Source: Psammoneis japonica (lineage: Eukaryota). From it: a DNA stretch of 48,194 nucleotides. The position numbers were made by a program, and so were the translations under genes. Below, one piece after another: positions 1,106 to 6,401 of the stretch; position 1 is the stretch's first letter; each line of letters opens with the position of its first letter. A model generated the notes under the pieces. The model was not told the DNA's origin. It did not search any database and worked only from the letters and a program-made list of their open reading frames with translations. The DNA is taken from assembly GCA_008632985.1 (NCBI GenBank), contig QPGO01000016.1, positions 778,840 through 827,033 of the forward strand. The letters run 5' to 3'.

Positions 1106-1536
1106 TGCAGCATGCCTCGCTGCTGGACAACACGGCGAGACCGTGCACAAGCCTCTTGCACGTGGCAACGTGGCATTGTCAACACGCACCTGGGAAGCAC
1201 GACCACAGGAGGGCGTGGCTCTGGGTCTCAGGCAATTCCAGAAGGATGCCAAGAGAGCATCCGTGTGAAGCACACTGGCCCGTCGTCTGGCCCACGATGG
1301 CAGCGTGATTCCACACGATGACATCACTCGTGCACAGCGCATGATGGCTTGATTCGCACGATCCACAATGCGAATGCACGATCGATTTGATGCGATCCAA
1401 ATGCAAACGAATGGGGATTTGGCAAGATTCCCCATTCGCACGATCCCATTTTCTCTGCTCTAAACCAGCTCACAATTTCCACAACGACAAAGTCGCAACA
1501 CATCTTCTTTTCAGCGCCTGGCACATGCACAGGGCA
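1106..1536 (+). repeat. 5' LTR
   Basis: Gap-free alignment to 5971-6401. Confidence 0.92.
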
Positions 1537-1630
1537 CAGCAATGTCACTCCCGCATGTTGTGCGAGGTGACGAAATCTGCAGAAACGAAACTGTGAAATG
1601 TTGGCAGGACCGACAAATCTTAAAACGACC

Positions 1631-2673
1631 ATGAAGAAGTGGATTGAGCCGCCGACTCCGTTCGCACGGCGGGAGAAGAAAGAGCTGCAGCAAGGCGAGT
1701 GCCAGACGTTCAAGCTGCGCAACAACCCCACTGATCCGGATGGTCCAATGCATGAGATGGGCATTCTGCACCTTTCCACAGCTACATGCGAGACACTCCC
1801 AATCTTTCTGCGCAACGTGGATCGCGTGCACGAAGGACAAAACATCACACTGGGCCAGCGAAATTTGCCCTCATGCGTGACCTGCTGCAGGGTGATGCTC
1901 TGACATCATTTGACAATGCCACTGACAAGCAGGCATCTCAAACCAATGCCACGCACGCAGCATGCATCGCGAAGCTAAAGGAAAGCATCTTCCCACATGG
2001 GGCGGCACCATTGCAGAAGCGTCATCTGAGGCGCTTTGTGTGCAAGCCCGCAGAGGTTTCTGCTCGTGACTGCGTCGCAAGGGCTGTTGAAATTAACGGC
2101 TGTGTCTCTCAGTTTCCACCCGTGACGGAGGATGGAGGAGCACCGGCACCATTGCCCAATGACGAACTGTGCGACATGTTCGAGTGCGGTGTGCCGAACG
2201 CATGGCAGAAGTTCATGACGCTACAGAATTTTGACCCGTTGGCACATGCTGTCGCCGAATTTGCACAGTTCTGCGAGTGCATCGAGCAGGTTGAGCTTGC
2301 CAAAGGCAACCTGGACCAACGTGCTGAGGTTCCACGCAAGCGGGGATGTAGAACAGACAATCCTGAGTCGTTGATCACGACCCAACGGAACACCCAGAAG
2401 TCGTGCATGCTGCATGGGACTAACTGTGGACATCATGCGGAGGATTGCCGTCAGCTCAAGCACCACGTGAAACGTGTCAAGACTGGACATTCCAACAACG
2501 GAGGCAGCAAACCCAATGCAAAACCTCGGAATGAGGAAGATGTCAATGCTCTCATCGGATCGAAGGTCGAGGAGTTCTTTGCCAACGCTCAGAAAAAGTG
2601 CAAGGCACGCGAGGAGGAGCTCAATCACTTTCGCTGCCTCAACTTGAGTGATTCCGAAGACTCGGACACCTGA
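1631..2673 (+). pseudogene. gag: Gypsy gag with a frameshift near 1850
   Basis: MKKWIEPP...GQNITL continues in another frame as GPAKFALMRDLLQGDAL...; C-terminal knuckle-like CMLHGTNCGHHAEDC; no Tyr in the 295-aa frame. Confidence 0.8.
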
Positions 2674-2805
2674 GAAGGGGGCCGACACGACACAGGCAGT
2701 TTCAATGCATCAGATGAATGTGCAAATGAACAACTGAATTGCCACAGCACACGTGTTGCAGGCCAATCCCGCAAACGAGTTAAAAAGACTCATCTCACTC
2801 CAATC

Positions 2806-5800
2806 TTGTTTGTGGCTGTGAATGCTGAACATGGCAAGGGCAAGACTCAAACCATTGGGGCACCACTGGACAGTGGCGCCAGCAGCACTCTACTCGACAG
2901 TCGACACTGTAAACGTCTGCGAAGCCATTCAACGGCTGAGACAAACTGGACTACGGTAGCAGGCTCGTTTAGTGCGTCTAACGACTGTGCCGTTAAATTT
3001 CGGTTACCAGAATTATCCGAAACTGCAGAACCCAAACATACCGTCCACGTACACAACGGAAAGTTGGGCAAGTACGATATGATTATTGGACGTGACATTC
3101 TGGAGACACAAGGCATTGACATTGTCTTCTCTAAACAGATGATAGAGTGGCCATTGGTCAATGGAGAAGTGCCAATGAGGCACGTAGATGCTGCGGTAGA
3201 AACCTCCTTCTATCTTCAAGATCCAGAAGCCTTATCTTCGGAAACCGACCGGATTTCGCGTATTTTAGACGCTAAGCACGCGCCGGCCTGCCTCAAGGAC
3301 ATAACGCGAGGGGCAATAGAACTTTCTATAGTTCAACAAAACGACCTTTTGGCACTATTGAAACGCCATGAGTCCTTGTTTGATGGGACATTAGGAGAAT
3401 GGAAGGGAGAACCCTGCCATGTCCAACTCAAGGAGGGTGTAGAACCATACCACGCTCGTCCGTATAAAGTACCTCGTGCGTACGAAGCTACGCTGCGTAA
3501 AGAAGTAGAACGCCCAGTGCGCATTGGTGTTCTCAAACGCGTCAACCGATCCCAATGGGCAGCTCCATCATTTATCATGCCGAAGAAAGATTTAACGGTG
3601 CGCTTTATTGATGATTTCAGAGAGCTGAATAAACGGATCAAGCGATTGCCTTGTCCGATTCCTCATGTCCAAGATGTGCTGCTCAAGCTCGAAGGCTTCA
3701 TGTGGGCTGCATCGCTGGATTTAAATGTGGGCTGTTGTCATGTCCGATTGGATGCTGACAGCAAGAAGCTCTGCACGCTCATCTTCCCGCGGGGCAAGCA
3801 TGAGATGCAGGCATTGCCCATGGGATTGTGCAACTCGCCAGACATTTTCCAAGAACGCATGTCAGGCTCATTTGAAGATCTGTCGTTCGTTCGAACGCAC
3901 TTAGATGACCTTCTCGTCGTGACGAAAGGCACCCACGAAGATCACCTCAACAAACTTGAAGAAGTTTCATTGAGGGTCCAGAAAGCAGGACCAAAAGTCA
4001 ACGCAACTAAATCTCACTTCTGTCAAACCCAATTGGAGTGCTTGGGTTGTCTGGTCAACAGAGACGGAATGTGACCAATGCCTGATGAAGTCGACGCCAT
4101 TGAGCGAATCGTGACCCCAGCCAATGAACGCAACCTGCGCTCATTTGTTGGCATGGTGAGCTGCTGCCGTGACACGTGGATTGGACGTTCTGAAGTCTTG
4201 GCTCCACTGACACGACTCGCAAGCAAAACTGTCAAGTGGGAGTGGACGTCCGTTGAAGACGAGGCGTTCAAAACCGTCAAACGGGTGATGTCGGATGATG
4301 TTTTGTTGTCACATCCTGATTTCAACAAACCCTTTGAGACACATGCCGATGCCTCTAAATGTCAATTGGGAGCAGTTGTGTCCCAAGACAATGAACCCAT
4401 CGCCTTTTACAGCAGAAAGCTTGACAGTGCGCAATTAAACCACACAACAACGGAGAGAGAATTGCTCGCCATTGTGGAGATGTTGAAAGAATTTCGAATG
4501 ATTCTCCTTGGTCATCGCACAATTGCATGTGCTGATCATAAAAATCTTACGCACAAAGTGTTCAACACCGAGCGCGTCATGCGCTGGCGGTCAACATGCG
4601 AAGAATGCGGTCCCGAATTACGCTGTGTCAAGGGCACCCATGACCCAGTCGCTGACGCTCTTAGTCGCCTTCGACTGGCACCCAGCTTGCCTTCCGAGGC
4701 CAACCCAGATGTAAAAGACACTCCATTGAGTCGTCCTTTGCATGAAGCTTTTAATGCAGATGCGCAAGATGAGATGTCTCTGCCTGTTGGCTTCAAGCGC
4801 ATTCAAAAAGCACAACAAAAGGACAAGTGCCTGCTCTCACGAGCTGAGGACTCGTCCGACTGCTCCATTTGCACGTGTCGTGGGGGAGGGTCATCACGAC
4901 AGTTAATCTGTCATAAGGACAAAATCGCAGTGCCACAGTCATTGCAGGTTCCGCCAACTGAATGGTGCCATGAGACATTGTGTCATCCAGGTGAGACACG
5001 TGCGGAAACATCCATTGCCCAGCACTTCCACTGGCCTGGCATGAGGTCTACGGTGCATTCTACGTGCGTCAAGTGCGATCGATGCCAGAAGACAAAACGC
5101 CAAATGCAGCATTGTGGGAAGCCACCAGAAAAGGTCGCAGAGATGATTCCATGGGAGACTCTGTGCATGGACATGATGGGGCCATGTAAAATTCAAAGAC
5201 GCGGAAAGGACACTTTGCAATTGTGGGCAGTCACAATGATTGACCCAGCAACCGGGTGGTTCGAGATTAAAGAAGTGTCTGCGAAACGTGCAGACGTCGC
5301 AGCAAACGTCGTGGAACAAACGTGGCCATGCAGATGTCCGTGGCCAACCCAGGTGGTTTGTGACCGTGGGACAGAATTCATGGCAGAATTTAGCCAGATG
5401 ATTAAAAATGACTGTGGGATTTTGAAGAAATCCACAAGCAAACGGAATCCACAGGCGAATGCCATGGTGGAACGTGTGCGCCAGACACTTGGTGACATGG
5501 TGCATTCCTTTTCAGTGCAGGATGTGGAACTGGACGAAGATGACCCATGGAGTGGCATCCTCTCCGCAGTGGCCTTCGCCATTGGAGCTGCGGTGCATGC
5601 GACCACGCGTGCAAGTCCCGTGCAGTTGGTCTTCGGACGCGATGCGGTTTCATCTGTTGCCCATCGTGCCAAGCAGAAGTGCATAGAAACCAGAAAGCAG
5701 AAGCTTGTCCACTCAAACAACAAGCGTGAAAATCAGAAACGCAAGGAGCACCAACACACCGCAGGGCAATTGGTGCTTGTCAAACAGGAACAATCCTCTA

Positions 5801-5970
5801 AATGCGGTTCTGACAGCTGTGCAGGACCCGCCAGAGTTGTCCGTGTGTGTGACAACGGCACGTTGCATGTCCAGAACGGAGCGCTGATGGATGCGTGCAA
5901 TCTACGGCAGATTGCACCCTGTCACCAGCAAGACATCCTGTCACTTAACGGCCCTGATCATGGGGGAGTG
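2806..5970 (+). pseudogene. pol: Gypsy pol (aspartic protease, RT, RNase H, integrase) with in-frame TGA at 4072-4074
   Basis: LDSGAS protease; DFRELNK, LPMGL and HLDD (for YxDD) in RT; DAS..LGAV and ERELLAIV in RNase H; H-x4-HPG...CxxC, D, DRGTEF and NPQANAMVER in integrase. Confidence 0.95.
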
Positions 5971-6401
5971 TGCAGCATGCCTCGCCACTGGACAACACGG
6001 CGAGACCGTGCACAAGCCTCTTGTGCATGGCAACGTGGCATTGTTGACACGCACCTGGGAAGCACGACCACAGGAGGGCGTGGCTCCAGGTCTTGGGCAA
6101 TTCCAGAAGGATGCTAAGAGAGCATCCGTGTGAAGCACACTGGCCCGTCGTCTGGCCCACGATGGCAGCGTGATTCCACACGATGACATCACTCGTGCAT
6201 GGCGCGTGATGGCTTGATTCGCACAATCCACAATGCGAATGCACGATCAATTTGATGCGATCCAAGTGCGAGCGAACAGGGATTTGGCAAGATTCCCCAT
6301 TCGCACGATCCCATTTTCTCTGCTCTAAACTGGCTCACAATTTCCACAACGACAAAGTCGCAACACATCTTCTTTTCAGCGCCTGGCACATGCAAAGGGC
6401 A
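5971..6401 (+). repeat. 3' LTR
   Basis: Gap-free alignment to 1106-1536, preceded by the polypurine tract. Confidence 0.92.

What the first reader, a model, noticed from the sequence alone, without database searches (positions are those of the whole stretch)
1106..6401. Repeat-targeted TpA-to-TpG/CpA (A-to-G) hypermutation: a candidate 'reverse RIP' genome-defence system
Seen: TpA is nearly absent from the TE blocks but normal in the neighbouring genes. In Gypsy pol, positions that are Tyr (TAY) in family consensus read Cys (TGY) or His (CAY): YxDD->HLDD (3898), GYYH->GCCH, EYLGY->ECLGC, NYYRD->SCCRD, ASKYQ->ASKCQ, NYTTTE->NHTTTE, EEYG->EECG, WYHE->WCHE. The 679-aa frame keeps a single Tyr. 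The LINE shows the same pattern (HVDD, SSCQAEACG). Getting both Cys and His means A-to-G acts on either strand. Known: fungal RIP and 5mC decay are C-to-T, so neither can remove TpA (RIP creates it). Inference: a process confined to repeats converts A:T to G:C at TpA close to saturation and destroys catalytic Tyr residues. Candidate chemistries are a DNA adenine deaminase (TadA-derived editors favour TA), deamination of a modified adenine, or polymerase-eta-type error-prone repair (WA-to-WG signature). I know of no description of this as a TE-defence pathway, but I could not search the literature.
Basis: partly seen in the sequence, partly recalled or inferred. Interest (0 to 1): 0.95.

Follow-up and report, generated by a model that had tools for sequence, protein, structure and literature searches.

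The report
TpA-erasing hypermutation of transposon-rich DNA
In this protist genome, nearly every TA step in the transposon-rich stretches was rewritten to TG or CA after the transposons inserted, which wrecked their enzymes; a mutation process with the same signature was first reported in 2026 in an unrelated alga, and the enzyme behind it is unknown.

Summary
In 26.4 kb of repeat blocks there are 140 TpA. About 926 are expected at the density of the neighbouring genes, and about 1408 at the density of two unmutated islands. TG and CA rise by the matching amount, and the total of pyrimidine-purine steps stays constant.

At Tyr-consensus columns the Gypsy pol reads Cys/His 23 of 28 times and the LINE 18 of 33. 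Homologues almost never do this.

The two LTRs differ mainly by TG-versus-CA double differences (8 of 17 events). This shows independent conversion of ancestral TA after integration, at 500 times the background rate or more. Contigs built from reads reproduce a TA-free single-copy stretch exactly, and other copies of the family still carry TA.

So a DNA-level, domain-confined T:A-to-C:G process at TpA is supported. It is no longer undescribed. A 2026 preprint shows the same signature arising de novo in Bigelowiella natans. This window comes from a different, intron-poor, ochrophyte-like organism. That makes it a second lineage, at near saturation, and on retrotransposons.

The enzyme, the targeting signal and the defence role remain inferred.

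The parts
1..1105 (.). Older repeat remnant flanking the Gypsy. It is both TA-free and CpG-poor.
   Evidence: 1 TA and 14 CG in 1105 nt; TA rho 0.01, CG rho 0.22, TG 2.00, CA 1.68. No Pfam hit in 4 ORFs. An X1 contig of 6867 nt at word depth 64.5 matches 1-740 with 0 differences (table 8).
1102..1105 (+). Target-site duplication CACC, left copy. The right copy is at 6402-6405.
   Evidence: Read directly. An X1 contig joins 1072 to 6401 and leaves a single CACC, which is an empty site (tables 5 and 5c).
1106..1536 (+). 5' LTR of the Ty3/Gypsy element (TG...CA termini)
   Evidence: In the 438-nt span counted it has 1 TA, 29 CG, 34 TG and 58 CA.
1756..6117 (+). Single gag-pol reading frame (PR-RT-RNaseH-integrase), broken by in-frame TGA codons at 2671-2673 and 4072-4074
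   Evidence: ORFs and stop codons. Pfam hits: RVT_1 2.9e-16, RT_RNaseH_2 3.5e-27, Integrase_H2C2 1.5e-10, and rve 3e-05 (below its cut-off). At 28 Tyr-consensus columns the element has Y 4, C 17, H 6, A 1.
2781..3630 (+). Island inside the Gypsy pol that keeps normal TpA and CpG
   Evidence: TA positions. Over 2751-3700: 43 TA, rho 0.69, CG rho 1.00. 3 of the 4 retained consensus Tyr codons lie here, at 3073, 3448 and 3481.
3898..3900 (+). CAC (His) at the Tyr of the RT YxDD motif
   Evidence: alignment position 409. The window reads HLDD.
5971..6401 (+). 3' LTR, preceded by a purine-rich tract
   Evidence: It differs from the 5' LTR by 17 events: 8 TG<->CA doubles, 1 TA<->CA, 5 CG<->TG/CA, 2 other transitions and 1 transversion.
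6500..7900 (.). Satellite of 8-nt units without any TA
   Evidence: 140 copies at 8-nt spacing. 0 TA, 5 CG, 321 TG, 23 CA.
7901..11020 (.). Unclassified block, TA-free and CpG-poor, ending sharply at the gene block
   Evidence: Over 7901-10950: 11 TA (rho 0.05), CG rho 0.30. The last TAs are at 10863, 10908 and 10916; from 11028 there is a TA about every 5 nt. 12 ORFs, no Pfam hit.
11028..27247 (.). Host gene block with normal TpA, used as the internal control. It holds a PAP phosphatase, a kinesin, a VWA protein and others.
   Evidence: 545 TA in 16,101 nt, rho 0.52, CG rho 1.01. Pfam: Kinesin 6.5e-72, VWA_4. Atlas and homologues: Inositol_P/PAP phosphatase.
27250..37500 (.). Old block of degraded repeats. 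27250-35250 lacks both TA and CpG.
   Evidence: Over 27250-35250: 21 TA (rho 0.04), 43 CG (rho 0.09), TG 1.90, CA 1.86. 48 ORFs, no Pfam hit. The tandem duplicate 37041/37219 differs by 5 TG<->CA doubles, 2 TA<->TG/CA, 4 CG<->TG/CA and 0 other events.
37520..45556 (-). LINE-like non-LTR retrotransposon (endonuclease, degraded RT, downstream ORF)
   Evidence: Exo_endo_phos 1.1e-06. 8 homologues of 1397-2116 aa at 34-42% identity. At 33 Tyr-consensus columns it has Y 5, C 13 (all TGY), H 5 (all CAY), F 6, other 4. TA rho 0.10-0.13 outside the island.
39335..40092 (-). Island inside the LINE that keeps normal TpA and CpG
   Evidence: TA positions. Over 39251-40100: 53 TA, rho 0.79, CG rho 1.29, GC 0.433 against 0.51 in the flanks.

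Best explanation
The transposon-rich domains of this chromosome (about 1-11020 and 27250-46250) have undergone a DNA-level hypermutation. It converts the T:A pair of a 5'-TpA-3' step to C:G.

How it behaves:
- At each site either strand can be hit, giving TpG or CpA.
- One hit removes the TA context on both strands. Sites are therefore hit once, and CpG is not created.
- The process runs almost to saturation and stops within about 100 bp of the host genes.
- It acts much faster than the CpG-to-TpG decay that affects the same domains.

Shown here: the conversion took place in the chromosome after integration, independently in each copy, at 500-fold or more over the background rate. It inactivates the elements by changing Tyr to Cys/His, Ile to Thr/Met and Leu to Pro/Ser.

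Inferred:
- It is the same kind of process that was seen arising de novo at TpA in integrated viral DNA of Bigelowiella natans.
- The chemistry is enzymatic deamination of adenine to hypoxanthine in a TA context. I put this at about 50%.
- It is aimed at silent or heterochromatic domains, not at individual sequences.
- It serves as a heritable way of killing mobile DNA.
For: 1. Size and specificity. There are 140 TA in the depleted blocks, where 926-1408 are expected. The summed frequency of TA+CG+TG+CA stays at 0.23-0.26 in every block while TA falls to 0.001-0.010. The other 12 dinucleotides stay near normal except in the satellite.

2. Ancestral TA, from proteins.
- Gypsy: 28 columns that are Tyr in at least 70% of 35 homologues read Y 4, C 17, H 6, A 1. 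The control, each homologue against the rest, keeps Tyr at 923 of 991 columns, with C 1 and H 17. The 35 homologues were taken from 120 listed hits.
- LINE: 33 columns read Y 5, C 13, H 5, F 6, other 4. Its control keeps Tyr at 144 of 165, with C 1 and H 5.
- Further replacements are those predicted for TA loss: Ile>Thr/Met 8, Leu>Pro/Ser 9, Val>Ala 3, Thr>Ala 8, Ile>Val 9.

3. Timing after integration.
- 8 of the 17 LTR-LTR differences are TG<->CA doubles. There are also 5 CpG events and 3 other events.
- This gives about 17 ancestral TA per LTR, of which 1-2 are left. That is at least 2.4 hits per TA site, against 0.081 per CpG site and 0.0045 per other site.
- The tandem duplicate 37041/37219 shows the same pattern, with 5 doubles among 11 events. 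Duplicates inside the kinesin gene show 2 doubles among 86 events.

4. Sites are hit independently. The order of strand choice along the elements shows no runs (10 observed against 9.9 expected, 10 against 8.2, 6 against 4.75).

5. Not a consensus artefact.
- Run X1 holds 0.92 of the sampled words of 8000-14000.
- An X1 contig at word depth 64.5 equals 1-740 without a single difference.
- Differences between copies in X1 are 291 transitions among 305 changed places.
- Of the 40 rows shown (272 more were not shown), 19 are transitions that restore TA in other copies and 9 restore CG.

6. Relatives elsewhere are normal. None of the 120 pol homologues is Tyr-poor (minimum 2.87%, against 0.52% in the window). 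All 4 related metagenome loci have TA rho of 0.80-1.17.

7. Precedent. In B. natans mutation-accumulation lines, 230 of 231 mutations in two integrated viral regions were A>G or T>C. All of these fell on TpA, at about 6e-7 per site per generation against 3.5e-10 elsewhere (preprint Results).
Against: - No whole genome is held. Confinement to repeats is therefore shown only within 48 kb.
- The three runs come from one sample, which may be the source of the assembly, and their library type is not on record. The two-platform check was not made.
- Only 40 of 312 variant rows were visible.
- Two islands of about 0.8 kb inside the elements escaped both TA conversion and CpG decay, and this is unexplained.
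- No enzyme was identified. Because TA is palindromic, A>G on one strand cannot be told from T>C on the other.
- A defence function is an inference. Nothing here shows benefit or regulation.
That it differs from B. natans rests on gene structure and on the lack of a close protein match.
Confidence: 0.8

Rival explanations
1. The process is the same, but the chemistry is aimed at thymine. For example, a TET/JBP-type oxidation of T in TpA would give a modified base that is mis-copied or mis-repaired to C.
For: At a palindromic TA, every observation here is equally T>C on the opposite strand. From memory, not from any call: thymine hydroxylases modify T before A in kinetoplastid telomere repeats, and 5-hydroxymethyluracil is enriched at TpA in dinoflagellate DNA.
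Against: By general knowledge, 5-hydroxymethyluracil pairs faithfully with A, so a near-quantitative T>C outcome has no known route. Adenine deamination gives A>G directly. tRNA adenosine deaminases naturally act on an A that follows U33 (recalled). Nothing was tested here.
Confidence: 0.12
2. Targeting works through recognition of sequence repeats (homology-dependent, as in fungal RIP) and not through a chromatin domain.
For: The Gypsy family is highly repeated. Summed word depth is about 10,000-38,000, against about 64 for single-copy DNA. The depleted blocks consist of transposons, a satellite and repeat remnants.
Against: - Depletion is continuous over 11 kb and 19 kb, across unrelated elements, a satellite and unclassifiable DNA, and ends at genes.
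- The stretch 1-651 is single-copy by word depth. It could have been repeated earlier.
- The islands inside the elements have the same summed depth as their mutated flanks (table 2).
- In B. natans the main hypermutable region is reported as single-copy.
Confidence: 0.2
3. The editing happened on the RNA or cDNA of the retroelements (ADAR-like, or during reverse transcription) and was merely inherited at insertion.
For: ADAR enzymes prefer a U before the edited A (stated in the preprint Discussion). Tyr>Cys exceeds Tyr>His on the sense strand of both elements: 17:6 and 13:5, pooled binomial p 0.004.
Against: - The two LTRs, identical at integration, differ by 8 TG<->CA doubles.
- A tandem duplicate made at the DNA level shows the same pattern.
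- Both strands are hit, without runs.
- The satellite and the unclassified DNA are also TA-free.
- Ile>Met against Ile>Thr shows no sense-strand bias (4:4; 0:3).
Confidence: 0.04
4. It is a sequencing or assembly artefact: modified bases in repeats were miscalled and left unpolished.
For: The pattern is confined to repeats, where polishing is weakest. The runs come from one sample of unknown library type.
Against: - Contigs built from reads at a word depth of about 64 reproduce a TA-free single-copy stretch with 0 differences in 740 nt.
- X1 holds 0.92 of the words of 8000-14000, half of which is TA-free.
- Other copies in the same run carry TA at the same places.
- A persistent deaminated base would read as a TG/CA mixture at every site, and none is seen in 1-740.
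- Slower CpG decay and ordinary substitutions accompany the signal.
Confidence: 0.03
5. It is the native composition of these element families, for example selection against UpA.
For: TpA is mildly under-represented in most genomes, including the genes here (rho 0.52).
Against: - Conserved and catalytic Tyr residues are replaced, and the frames are broken.
- Homologues and related loci are TA-normal.
- Other copies carry TA.
- The LTRs diverged at former TA sites.
Confidence: 0.01

Closest known systems
TpA-specific hypermutation of integrated viral DNA in Bigelowiella natans (Mettrop et al., bioRxiv 10.64898/2026.01.13.699255; I read the outline, Results and Discussion, and passages)
   Same: - T:A>C:G only, and only at TpA, giving TpG or CpA according to strand.
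- Confined to particular non-host regions, with the rest of the genome normal.
- About 1000-fold above background there; at least about 500-fold here, from the LTR pair.
- The preprint also finds TpA-poor, CpA+TpG-rich clusters and coding sequences enriched for reverse transcriptase and DDE domains.
   Different: - The host is different: intron-poor, with ochrophyte-like proteins. B. natans has about 8 introns per gene.
- Here the signal is a historical footprint at near saturation (TA rho 0.01-0.17). It lies on LTR and non-LTR retrotransposons, a satellite and old repeats. The preprint's viral region is only about 1.8-fold depleted.
- Here it is coupled with CpG decay.
- An order of flanking bases (ATAT most converted, TTAA least) is seen here. 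I did not find it in the preprint's main text.
Repeat-induced point mutation (RIP) of ascomycete fungi
   Same: A heritable, DNA-level, dinucleotide-specific transition hypermutation that inactivates mobile elements and leaves a compositional footprint in blocks.
   Different: The direction is opposite: RIP makes TpA from CpA (abstract of PMC2621366, listing), and this process removes TpA. Duplication dependence, premeiotic timing and a cytosine-methyltransferase-like enzyme are not shown here. The domain-wide pattern argues against pure repeat recognition.
A-to-I hyperediting by ADAR, and APOBEC editing of retroelements
   Same: Deaminase-type transitions that cripple retroelements. ADAR favours a U before the A.
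   Different: Those act on RNA or on single-stranded cDNA before integration, and on one strand. Here both strands are hit after integration, and non-retroelement DNA is hit as well.
tRNA adenosine deaminases (TadA/ADAT2) with reported DNA activity, and base editors derived from TadA
   Same: A>I chemistry. A DNA A-deaminase activity is reported for amphioxus ADAT2 (title and abstract of PMC10354150, listing). The natural target A follows a U (recalled).
   Different: No such gene could be sought, because no genome is held. No natural enzyme is known to me that converts A in chromosomal TpA to saturation.
CpG decay by deamination of 5-methylcytosine
   Same: It also yields TpG/CpA, and it is present in the same domains (CG rho 0.09-0.30 in the old blocks).
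   Different: It cannot remove TpA. From the LTR pair it is at least 30 times slower per site than the TpA process.

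Membership tests
TpA-targeted T:A>C:G hypermutation (B. natans type) | Changes are almost only A>G or T>C | tested here: met
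   At Tyr-consensus codons, 23 of the 24 changed Gypsy sites are TGY or CAY. The LINE has 13 TGY and 5 CAY among 28 changed sites. ApA, ApT and the other steps are unchanged.
TpA-targeted T:A>C:G hypermutation (B. natans type) | Restricted to TpA, giving TpG or CpA | tested here: met
   The TA deficit is matched by the TG+CA gain, with the YpR total constant. TG<->CA doubles dominate the LTR and tandem-duplicate differences.
TpA-targeted T:A>C:G hypermutation (B. natans type) | Confined to particular non-host regions while the rest of the genome is normal | tested here: inconclusive
   Met within the window, with sharp edges at 10916/11028 and near 27247. It could not be tested genome-wide, because no genome is held.
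TpA-targeted T:A>C:G hypermutation (B. natans type) | Arises de novo in chromosomal DNA | tested here: inconclusive
   Origin after integration is shown by LTR discordance. Real-time appearance needs mutation-accumulation lines, which these tools cannot provide.
TpA-targeted T:A>C:G hypermutation (B. natans type) | Rate orders of magnitude above background | tested here: met
   At least 2.4 hits per TA site, against 0.0045 per other site, in the LTR pair. This is a rough estimate from one pair.
Fungal RIP | C:G>T:A transitions, typically CpA>TpA, raising TpA | tested here: not met
   TpA is removed, not made. GC content is kept or raised.
Fungal RIP | Triggered by sequence duplication | not testable with these tools
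   Only indirect hints are available (depths). See the rival on targeting.
ADAR-type RNA hyperediting fixed by retrotransposition | Sense-strand A>G acquired before integration, so both LTRs are alike | tested here: not met
   8 TG<->CA doubles between the LTRs, with both strands hit.
Polymerase-eta type WA>WG mutagenesis | ApA is hit as well as TpA | tested here: not met
   AA/TT rho is 1.03-1.32 in the depleted blocks, as in the genes.
Ty3/Gypsy LTR retrotransposon (the carrier element 1106-6401) | Two LTRs with TG..CA ends, a target-site duplication, and pol order RT-RNaseH-integrase | tested here: met
   LTRs at 1106-1536 and 5971-6401, and the TSD CACC. Pfam domain order. 1001 homologues with E<=1e-10.

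The most novel reading that the evidence does not exclude
A natural enzyme system that edits chromosomal double-stranded DNA at TpA is shared by distant algal lineages, a rhizarian and this ochrophyte-like organism. It most likely works by deaminating adenine, prefers ATAT and avoids TTAA. It is directed to silent chromatin domains and serves as a heritable 'reverse RIP' that kills transposons and integrated viruses. If so, TA-free, TG/CA-rich heterochromatin is a diagnostic footprint, and comparing the gene sets of carrier and non-carrier genomes could identify the enzyme.
Probability: 0.45. Interest if true: 0.9.

Novelty: new member of a known kind. Interest (0 to 1): 0.7.

Why it matters
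The only description I found is a 2026 preprint on one chlorarachniophyte, and it identifies no enzyme. A second, unrelated host shows that the process is not a peculiarity of one species or of viral inserts. Here it runs to saturation on retrotransposons.

What this window adds:
- It gives a clean natural read-out: single-hit kinetics, either strand, and a flanking-base order.
- It offers a repeat family at roughly 150-600 times single-copy word depth for spectrum analysis.
- It gives a second genome for comparative searches for the enzyme, which could be a natural adenine editor of double-stranded DNA.

There is also a practical side for annotation. TA-free DNA has only TGA stops, so it throws up many false ORFs. 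Protein domain models fail on the mutated elements: Pfam missed the LINE reverse transcriptase at E<=0.01.

Tried and rejected
- Whole-genome test: no genome is held.
- Earlier notes of this scan: none for this genome or this sequence. The 8 notes shown for 'TpA' (of 41 found) concern phages and bacteria and do not bear on this finding.
I then laid 1-6500. As a result, the gene/repeat boundaries and the LINE were never laid.
- RNA: no RNA holder was listed, so nothing can be said on expression.
- Same-family copies elsewhere: the metagenome scan gave only 4 loci at 44-51% identity, all TA-normal. The protein search gave no hit above 58% identity. No family-wide alignment of copies could therefore be built.
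- Old blocks: 64 ORFs from 1-1200, 7900-11100 and 27000-37600 gave no Pfam hit.
- Host identity:
  - The first atlas call pointed to diatoms for the PAP phosphatase.
  - The second atlas call, on the 828-aa protein, gave no score above 0.79.
  - The best named homologues are a pelagophyte (Chrysophaeum taylorii) and diatoms, at 25-36% identity.
  - I say only 'ochrophyte-like'.
- Strand bias: Cys outnumbers His 30:11, but Ile>Met against Ile>Thr does not follow. Dinucleotide gains relative to the islands point in opposite directions in the two elements. I make no claim here.
- The codon coordinates printed were mis-registered by the alignment option. They were replaced by those.
- Literature: searches found no other report of TpA-removing hypermutation of repeats, and none for diatoms or stramenopiles. 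One search failed on a term's syntax. PMC12220804 was checked by passage search and is unrelated.
- Rejected explanations: GC-biased gene conversion and UV TA photoproducts. Neither explains a domain-confined change that is restricted to TpA.

Full report
WHAT IS THERE

The window alternates between two kinds of DNA. The first kind is host genes: 11028-27247 and from about 46300 to the end.
- They encode a PAP phosphatase, a kinesin with a long coiled coil, a VWA protein and a fatty-acid hydroxylase.
- Their dinucleotide content is ordinary. TA rho is 0.52-0.68 and CG rho is 0.76-1.01.

The second kind is two repeat-rich domains.
- Domain 1-11020 holds an old repeat remnant, a Ty3/Gypsy element, a satellite of 8-nt units and unclassifiable DNA.
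- Domain 27250 to about 46250 holds about 10 kb of unclassifiable DNA and a LINE-like element on the minus strand.
- The Gypsy has LTRs at 1106-1536 and 5971-6401 and a target-site duplication of CACC. It carries one gag-pol frame, 1756-6117, broken by two in-frame TGA codons.

TpA is almost gone from both domains.
- There are 140 TA in 26,400 nt. At gene-block density 926 are expected. At the density of two unmutated islands inside the elements, 1408 are expected.
- TG and CA rise to rho 1.35-2.0.
- The summed frequency of the four pyrimidine-purine steps stays at 0.23-0.26 everywhere. The other twelve dinucleotides stay near normal outside the satellite.
- The loss is therefore a redistribution of TA into TG and CA. 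In the older blocks CG is redistributed the same way.
- ApA is untouched. This argues against a polymerase-eta-like WA signature.

THE LOST TA WERE REALLY THERE

Gypsy pol (2674-6117).
- I aligned it with 35 full-length homologues. These were the first 35 of the 42 proteins of at least 950 aa among the first 60 of 120 listed hits.
- Of 28 columns that are Tyr in at least 70% of the homologues, the window has Tyr 4 times, Cys 17, His 6 and Ala once.
- Every Cys codon is TGY and every His codon is CAY.
- When each homologue is tested against the others, Tyr is kept at 923 of 991 columns, with 1 Cys and 17 His.
- The other excess replacements are those expected from TA loss inside or across codons: Ile>Thr/Met, Leu>Pro/Ser, Val>Ala, Thr>Ala and Ile>Val.

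LINE.
- With 8 homologues, 33 Tyr-consensus columns read Y 5, C 13, H 5, F 6 and other 4.
- The control kept Tyr at 144 of 165 columns, with C 1 and H 5.

Relatives elsewhere are normal.
- None of the 120 pol homologues is Tyr-poor.
- The 4 related metagenome loci have normal TpA.

IT HAPPENED IN THE CHROMOSOME, AFTER INSERTION, COPY BY COPY

The two LTRs were identical at integration.
- They now differ by 17 events: 8 TG-versus-CA double differences, 1 TA versus CA, 5 CpG versus TG/CA, 2 other transitions and 1 transversion.
- A TG/CA double difference is what independent conversion of one ancestral TA leaves behind, through the top strand in one copy and the bottom strand in the other.
- CpG cannot account for these doubles. 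Only about 8% of CpG sites have changed per LTR.
- With saturation and a random choice of strand, 8 discordant sites imply about 17 ancestral TA per LTR. That density, 0.039, is like that of the unmutated island. Only 1 and 2 TA remain.
- This means at least 2.4 hits per TA site, against 0.081 per CpG site and 0.0045 per other site.

Two further points.
- A tandem duplicate inside the second domain repeats the pattern: 5 doubles, 2 TA<->TG/CA, 4 CpG events and nothing else. Duplicates inside the kinesin gene show 2 doubles among 86 events.
- The order of strand choices along the elements shows no runs. Sites were hit one by one, not in processive single-strand sweeps.

REAL OR ARTEFACT?

One sample (runs X1-X3) holds the sequence. 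Laid on 1-6500, its contigs show the following.
- A 6867-nt contig at word depth 64.5 is identical to 1-740, which is a TA-free, CpG-poor, single-copy stretch.
- Summed depth over the Gypsy is 10,000-38,000, so the family is highly repeated.
- There are 305 changed places, of which 291 are transitions.
- Of the 40 variant rows shown (272 were not shown), 19 are transitions that give TA in other copies where this copy has TG or CA. Another 9 give CG.
- So the family is not natively TA-free, and the TG/CA calls do not depend on one assembler.

Limits: the runs may be the assembly's own data, and their library type is not recorded. The two-platform test remains undone.

FINER ANATOMY

1. Edges are sharp. 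The last TAs on the repeat side are at 10863, 10908 and 10916. From 11028 there is a TA about every 5 nt. The edge at about 27247 is similar.

2. Residual TAs are not random.
   - 74% lie in a TAA/TTA context, against 36% in genes and 45% in the islands.
   - 11% lie in an ATA/TAT context, against 42-45%.
   - Survival by tetranucleotide, relative to gene-block density: ATAT 0, ATAC/GTAT 0.01, GTAC 0.05, CTAC/GTAG 0.11, GTAA/TTAC 0.25, CTAA/TTAG 0.59, TTAA 0.65.
   - By my own hand estimate, made in no call, these values fit an additive effect of the flanking base pair, in the order A > G > C > T for the base 5' of the T.

3. Two islands, 2781-3630 and 39335-40092, keep normal TA and also the highest CpG. 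Possible causes are recent gene conversion from intact copies, local protection from the targeting mark, or a chimeric assembly of copies. I could not decide between them.

4. Tyr>Cys exceeds Tyr>His on the sense strand of both elements (30:11, p 0.004). Ile>Met against Ile>Thr does not follow, so a flank effect of the TAY codon is as likely as a true strand bias.

HOW IT PROBABLY WORKS

Shown: a single-hit, either-strand, TpA-specific T:A>C:G conversion of chromosomal DNA. It is confined to contiguous repeat-rich domains and is far faster than CpG decay.

Inferred:
- Enzymatic deamination of adenine to hypoxanthine in a TA context is the simplest chemistry, at about 50%. A thymine-directed route cannot be excluded from sequence, at about 12%.
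- The contiguous, multi-element extent of the domains, the sharp edges at genes, and the coupling with CpG decay suggest targeting by a silent-chromatin mark more than by repeat recognition.
- A defence role is plausible, because the elements are inactivated. It is not demonstrated.

COMPARISON WITH WHAT IS KNOWN

Searches of the paper library found one description: bioRxiv 10.64898/2026.01.13.699255. I read its outline, Results and Discussion and some passages.
- In B. natans mutation-accumulation lines, 230 of 231 mutations in an integrated giant-virus region and a virophage region were A>G or T>C. All of these fell on TpA, at about 6e-7 per site per generation.
- The authors also report TpA-poor coding sequences enriched for reverse-transcriptase and DDE domains. 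They compare the process with RIP and propose an ADAT2-like deaminase.

The window is not B. natans.
- Its genes have uninterrupted ORFs of 1295, 828, 774 and 526 aa. B. natans averages 8 introns per gene (table in PMC13746701, passage search).
- Its PAP phosphatase has no match above 56% identity. The best named relatives are a pelagophyte (Chrysophaeum taylorii) and diatoms, at 25-36%.
- This makes it a second lineage, with the footprint at saturation on retrotransposons.

It is not RIP, whose direction is opposite. It is not ADAR or APOBEC editing of intermediates, because the LTRs are discordant, both strands are hit and non-retroelement DNA is affected. It is not CpG decay alone.

VERDICT

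It is no longer without precedent. I class it as a new member of a very recently described and mechanistically open kind. Interest is 0.7.

Noticed in passing
window 6500-7900: A satellite of about 1.4 kb made of 8-nt units. It is extremely strand-asymmetric (321 TG against 23 CA), has no TA, and sits directly after the Gypsy 3' LTR.
   Followed up: partly
window 1-11020 and 27250-46250: Only TGA stops remain in TA-free DNA, so every frame carries long spurious ORFs. 64 ORFs of at least 100 aa from the unclassified parts gave no Pfam hit. Pfam at E<=0.01 also missed the LINE reverse transcriptase. This is a trap for gene callers and TE annotators.
   Followed up: partly
window 1072-1105 and 6401-6410: A contig of run X1 (depth 88.7) joins the two flanks of the Gypsy with a single CACC, which is a precise empty site. 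Its 26 letters upstream differ from the window. It may therefore be a paralogous copy of the older flanking repeat and not the other allele (tables 5 and 5c).
   Followed up: partly
window 2781-3630 and 39335-40092: Both recognisable retroelements contain one island of about 0.8 kb that escaped TA conversion and also has the least CpG decay. The cause is unknown.
   Followed up: partly
window 11028-11085: A TA-rich run of GTAC/AGTAC-like short repeats lies immediately outside the edge of the TA-free domain.
   Followed up: no
window 19516-26553 (- strand): A kinesin gene whose coiled-coil part contains internal repeats of about 420 bp at 75-82% identity (D3 and D4).
   Followed up: no
window 14634-17120 (+ strand): An 828-aa protein with a weak VWA_4 match (3.9e-05, below the cut-off). 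Its nearest atlas clusters are viral VWA/DUF2828/TROVE-like families, at low scores of 0.77-0.79. This is a lead only.
   Followed up: no
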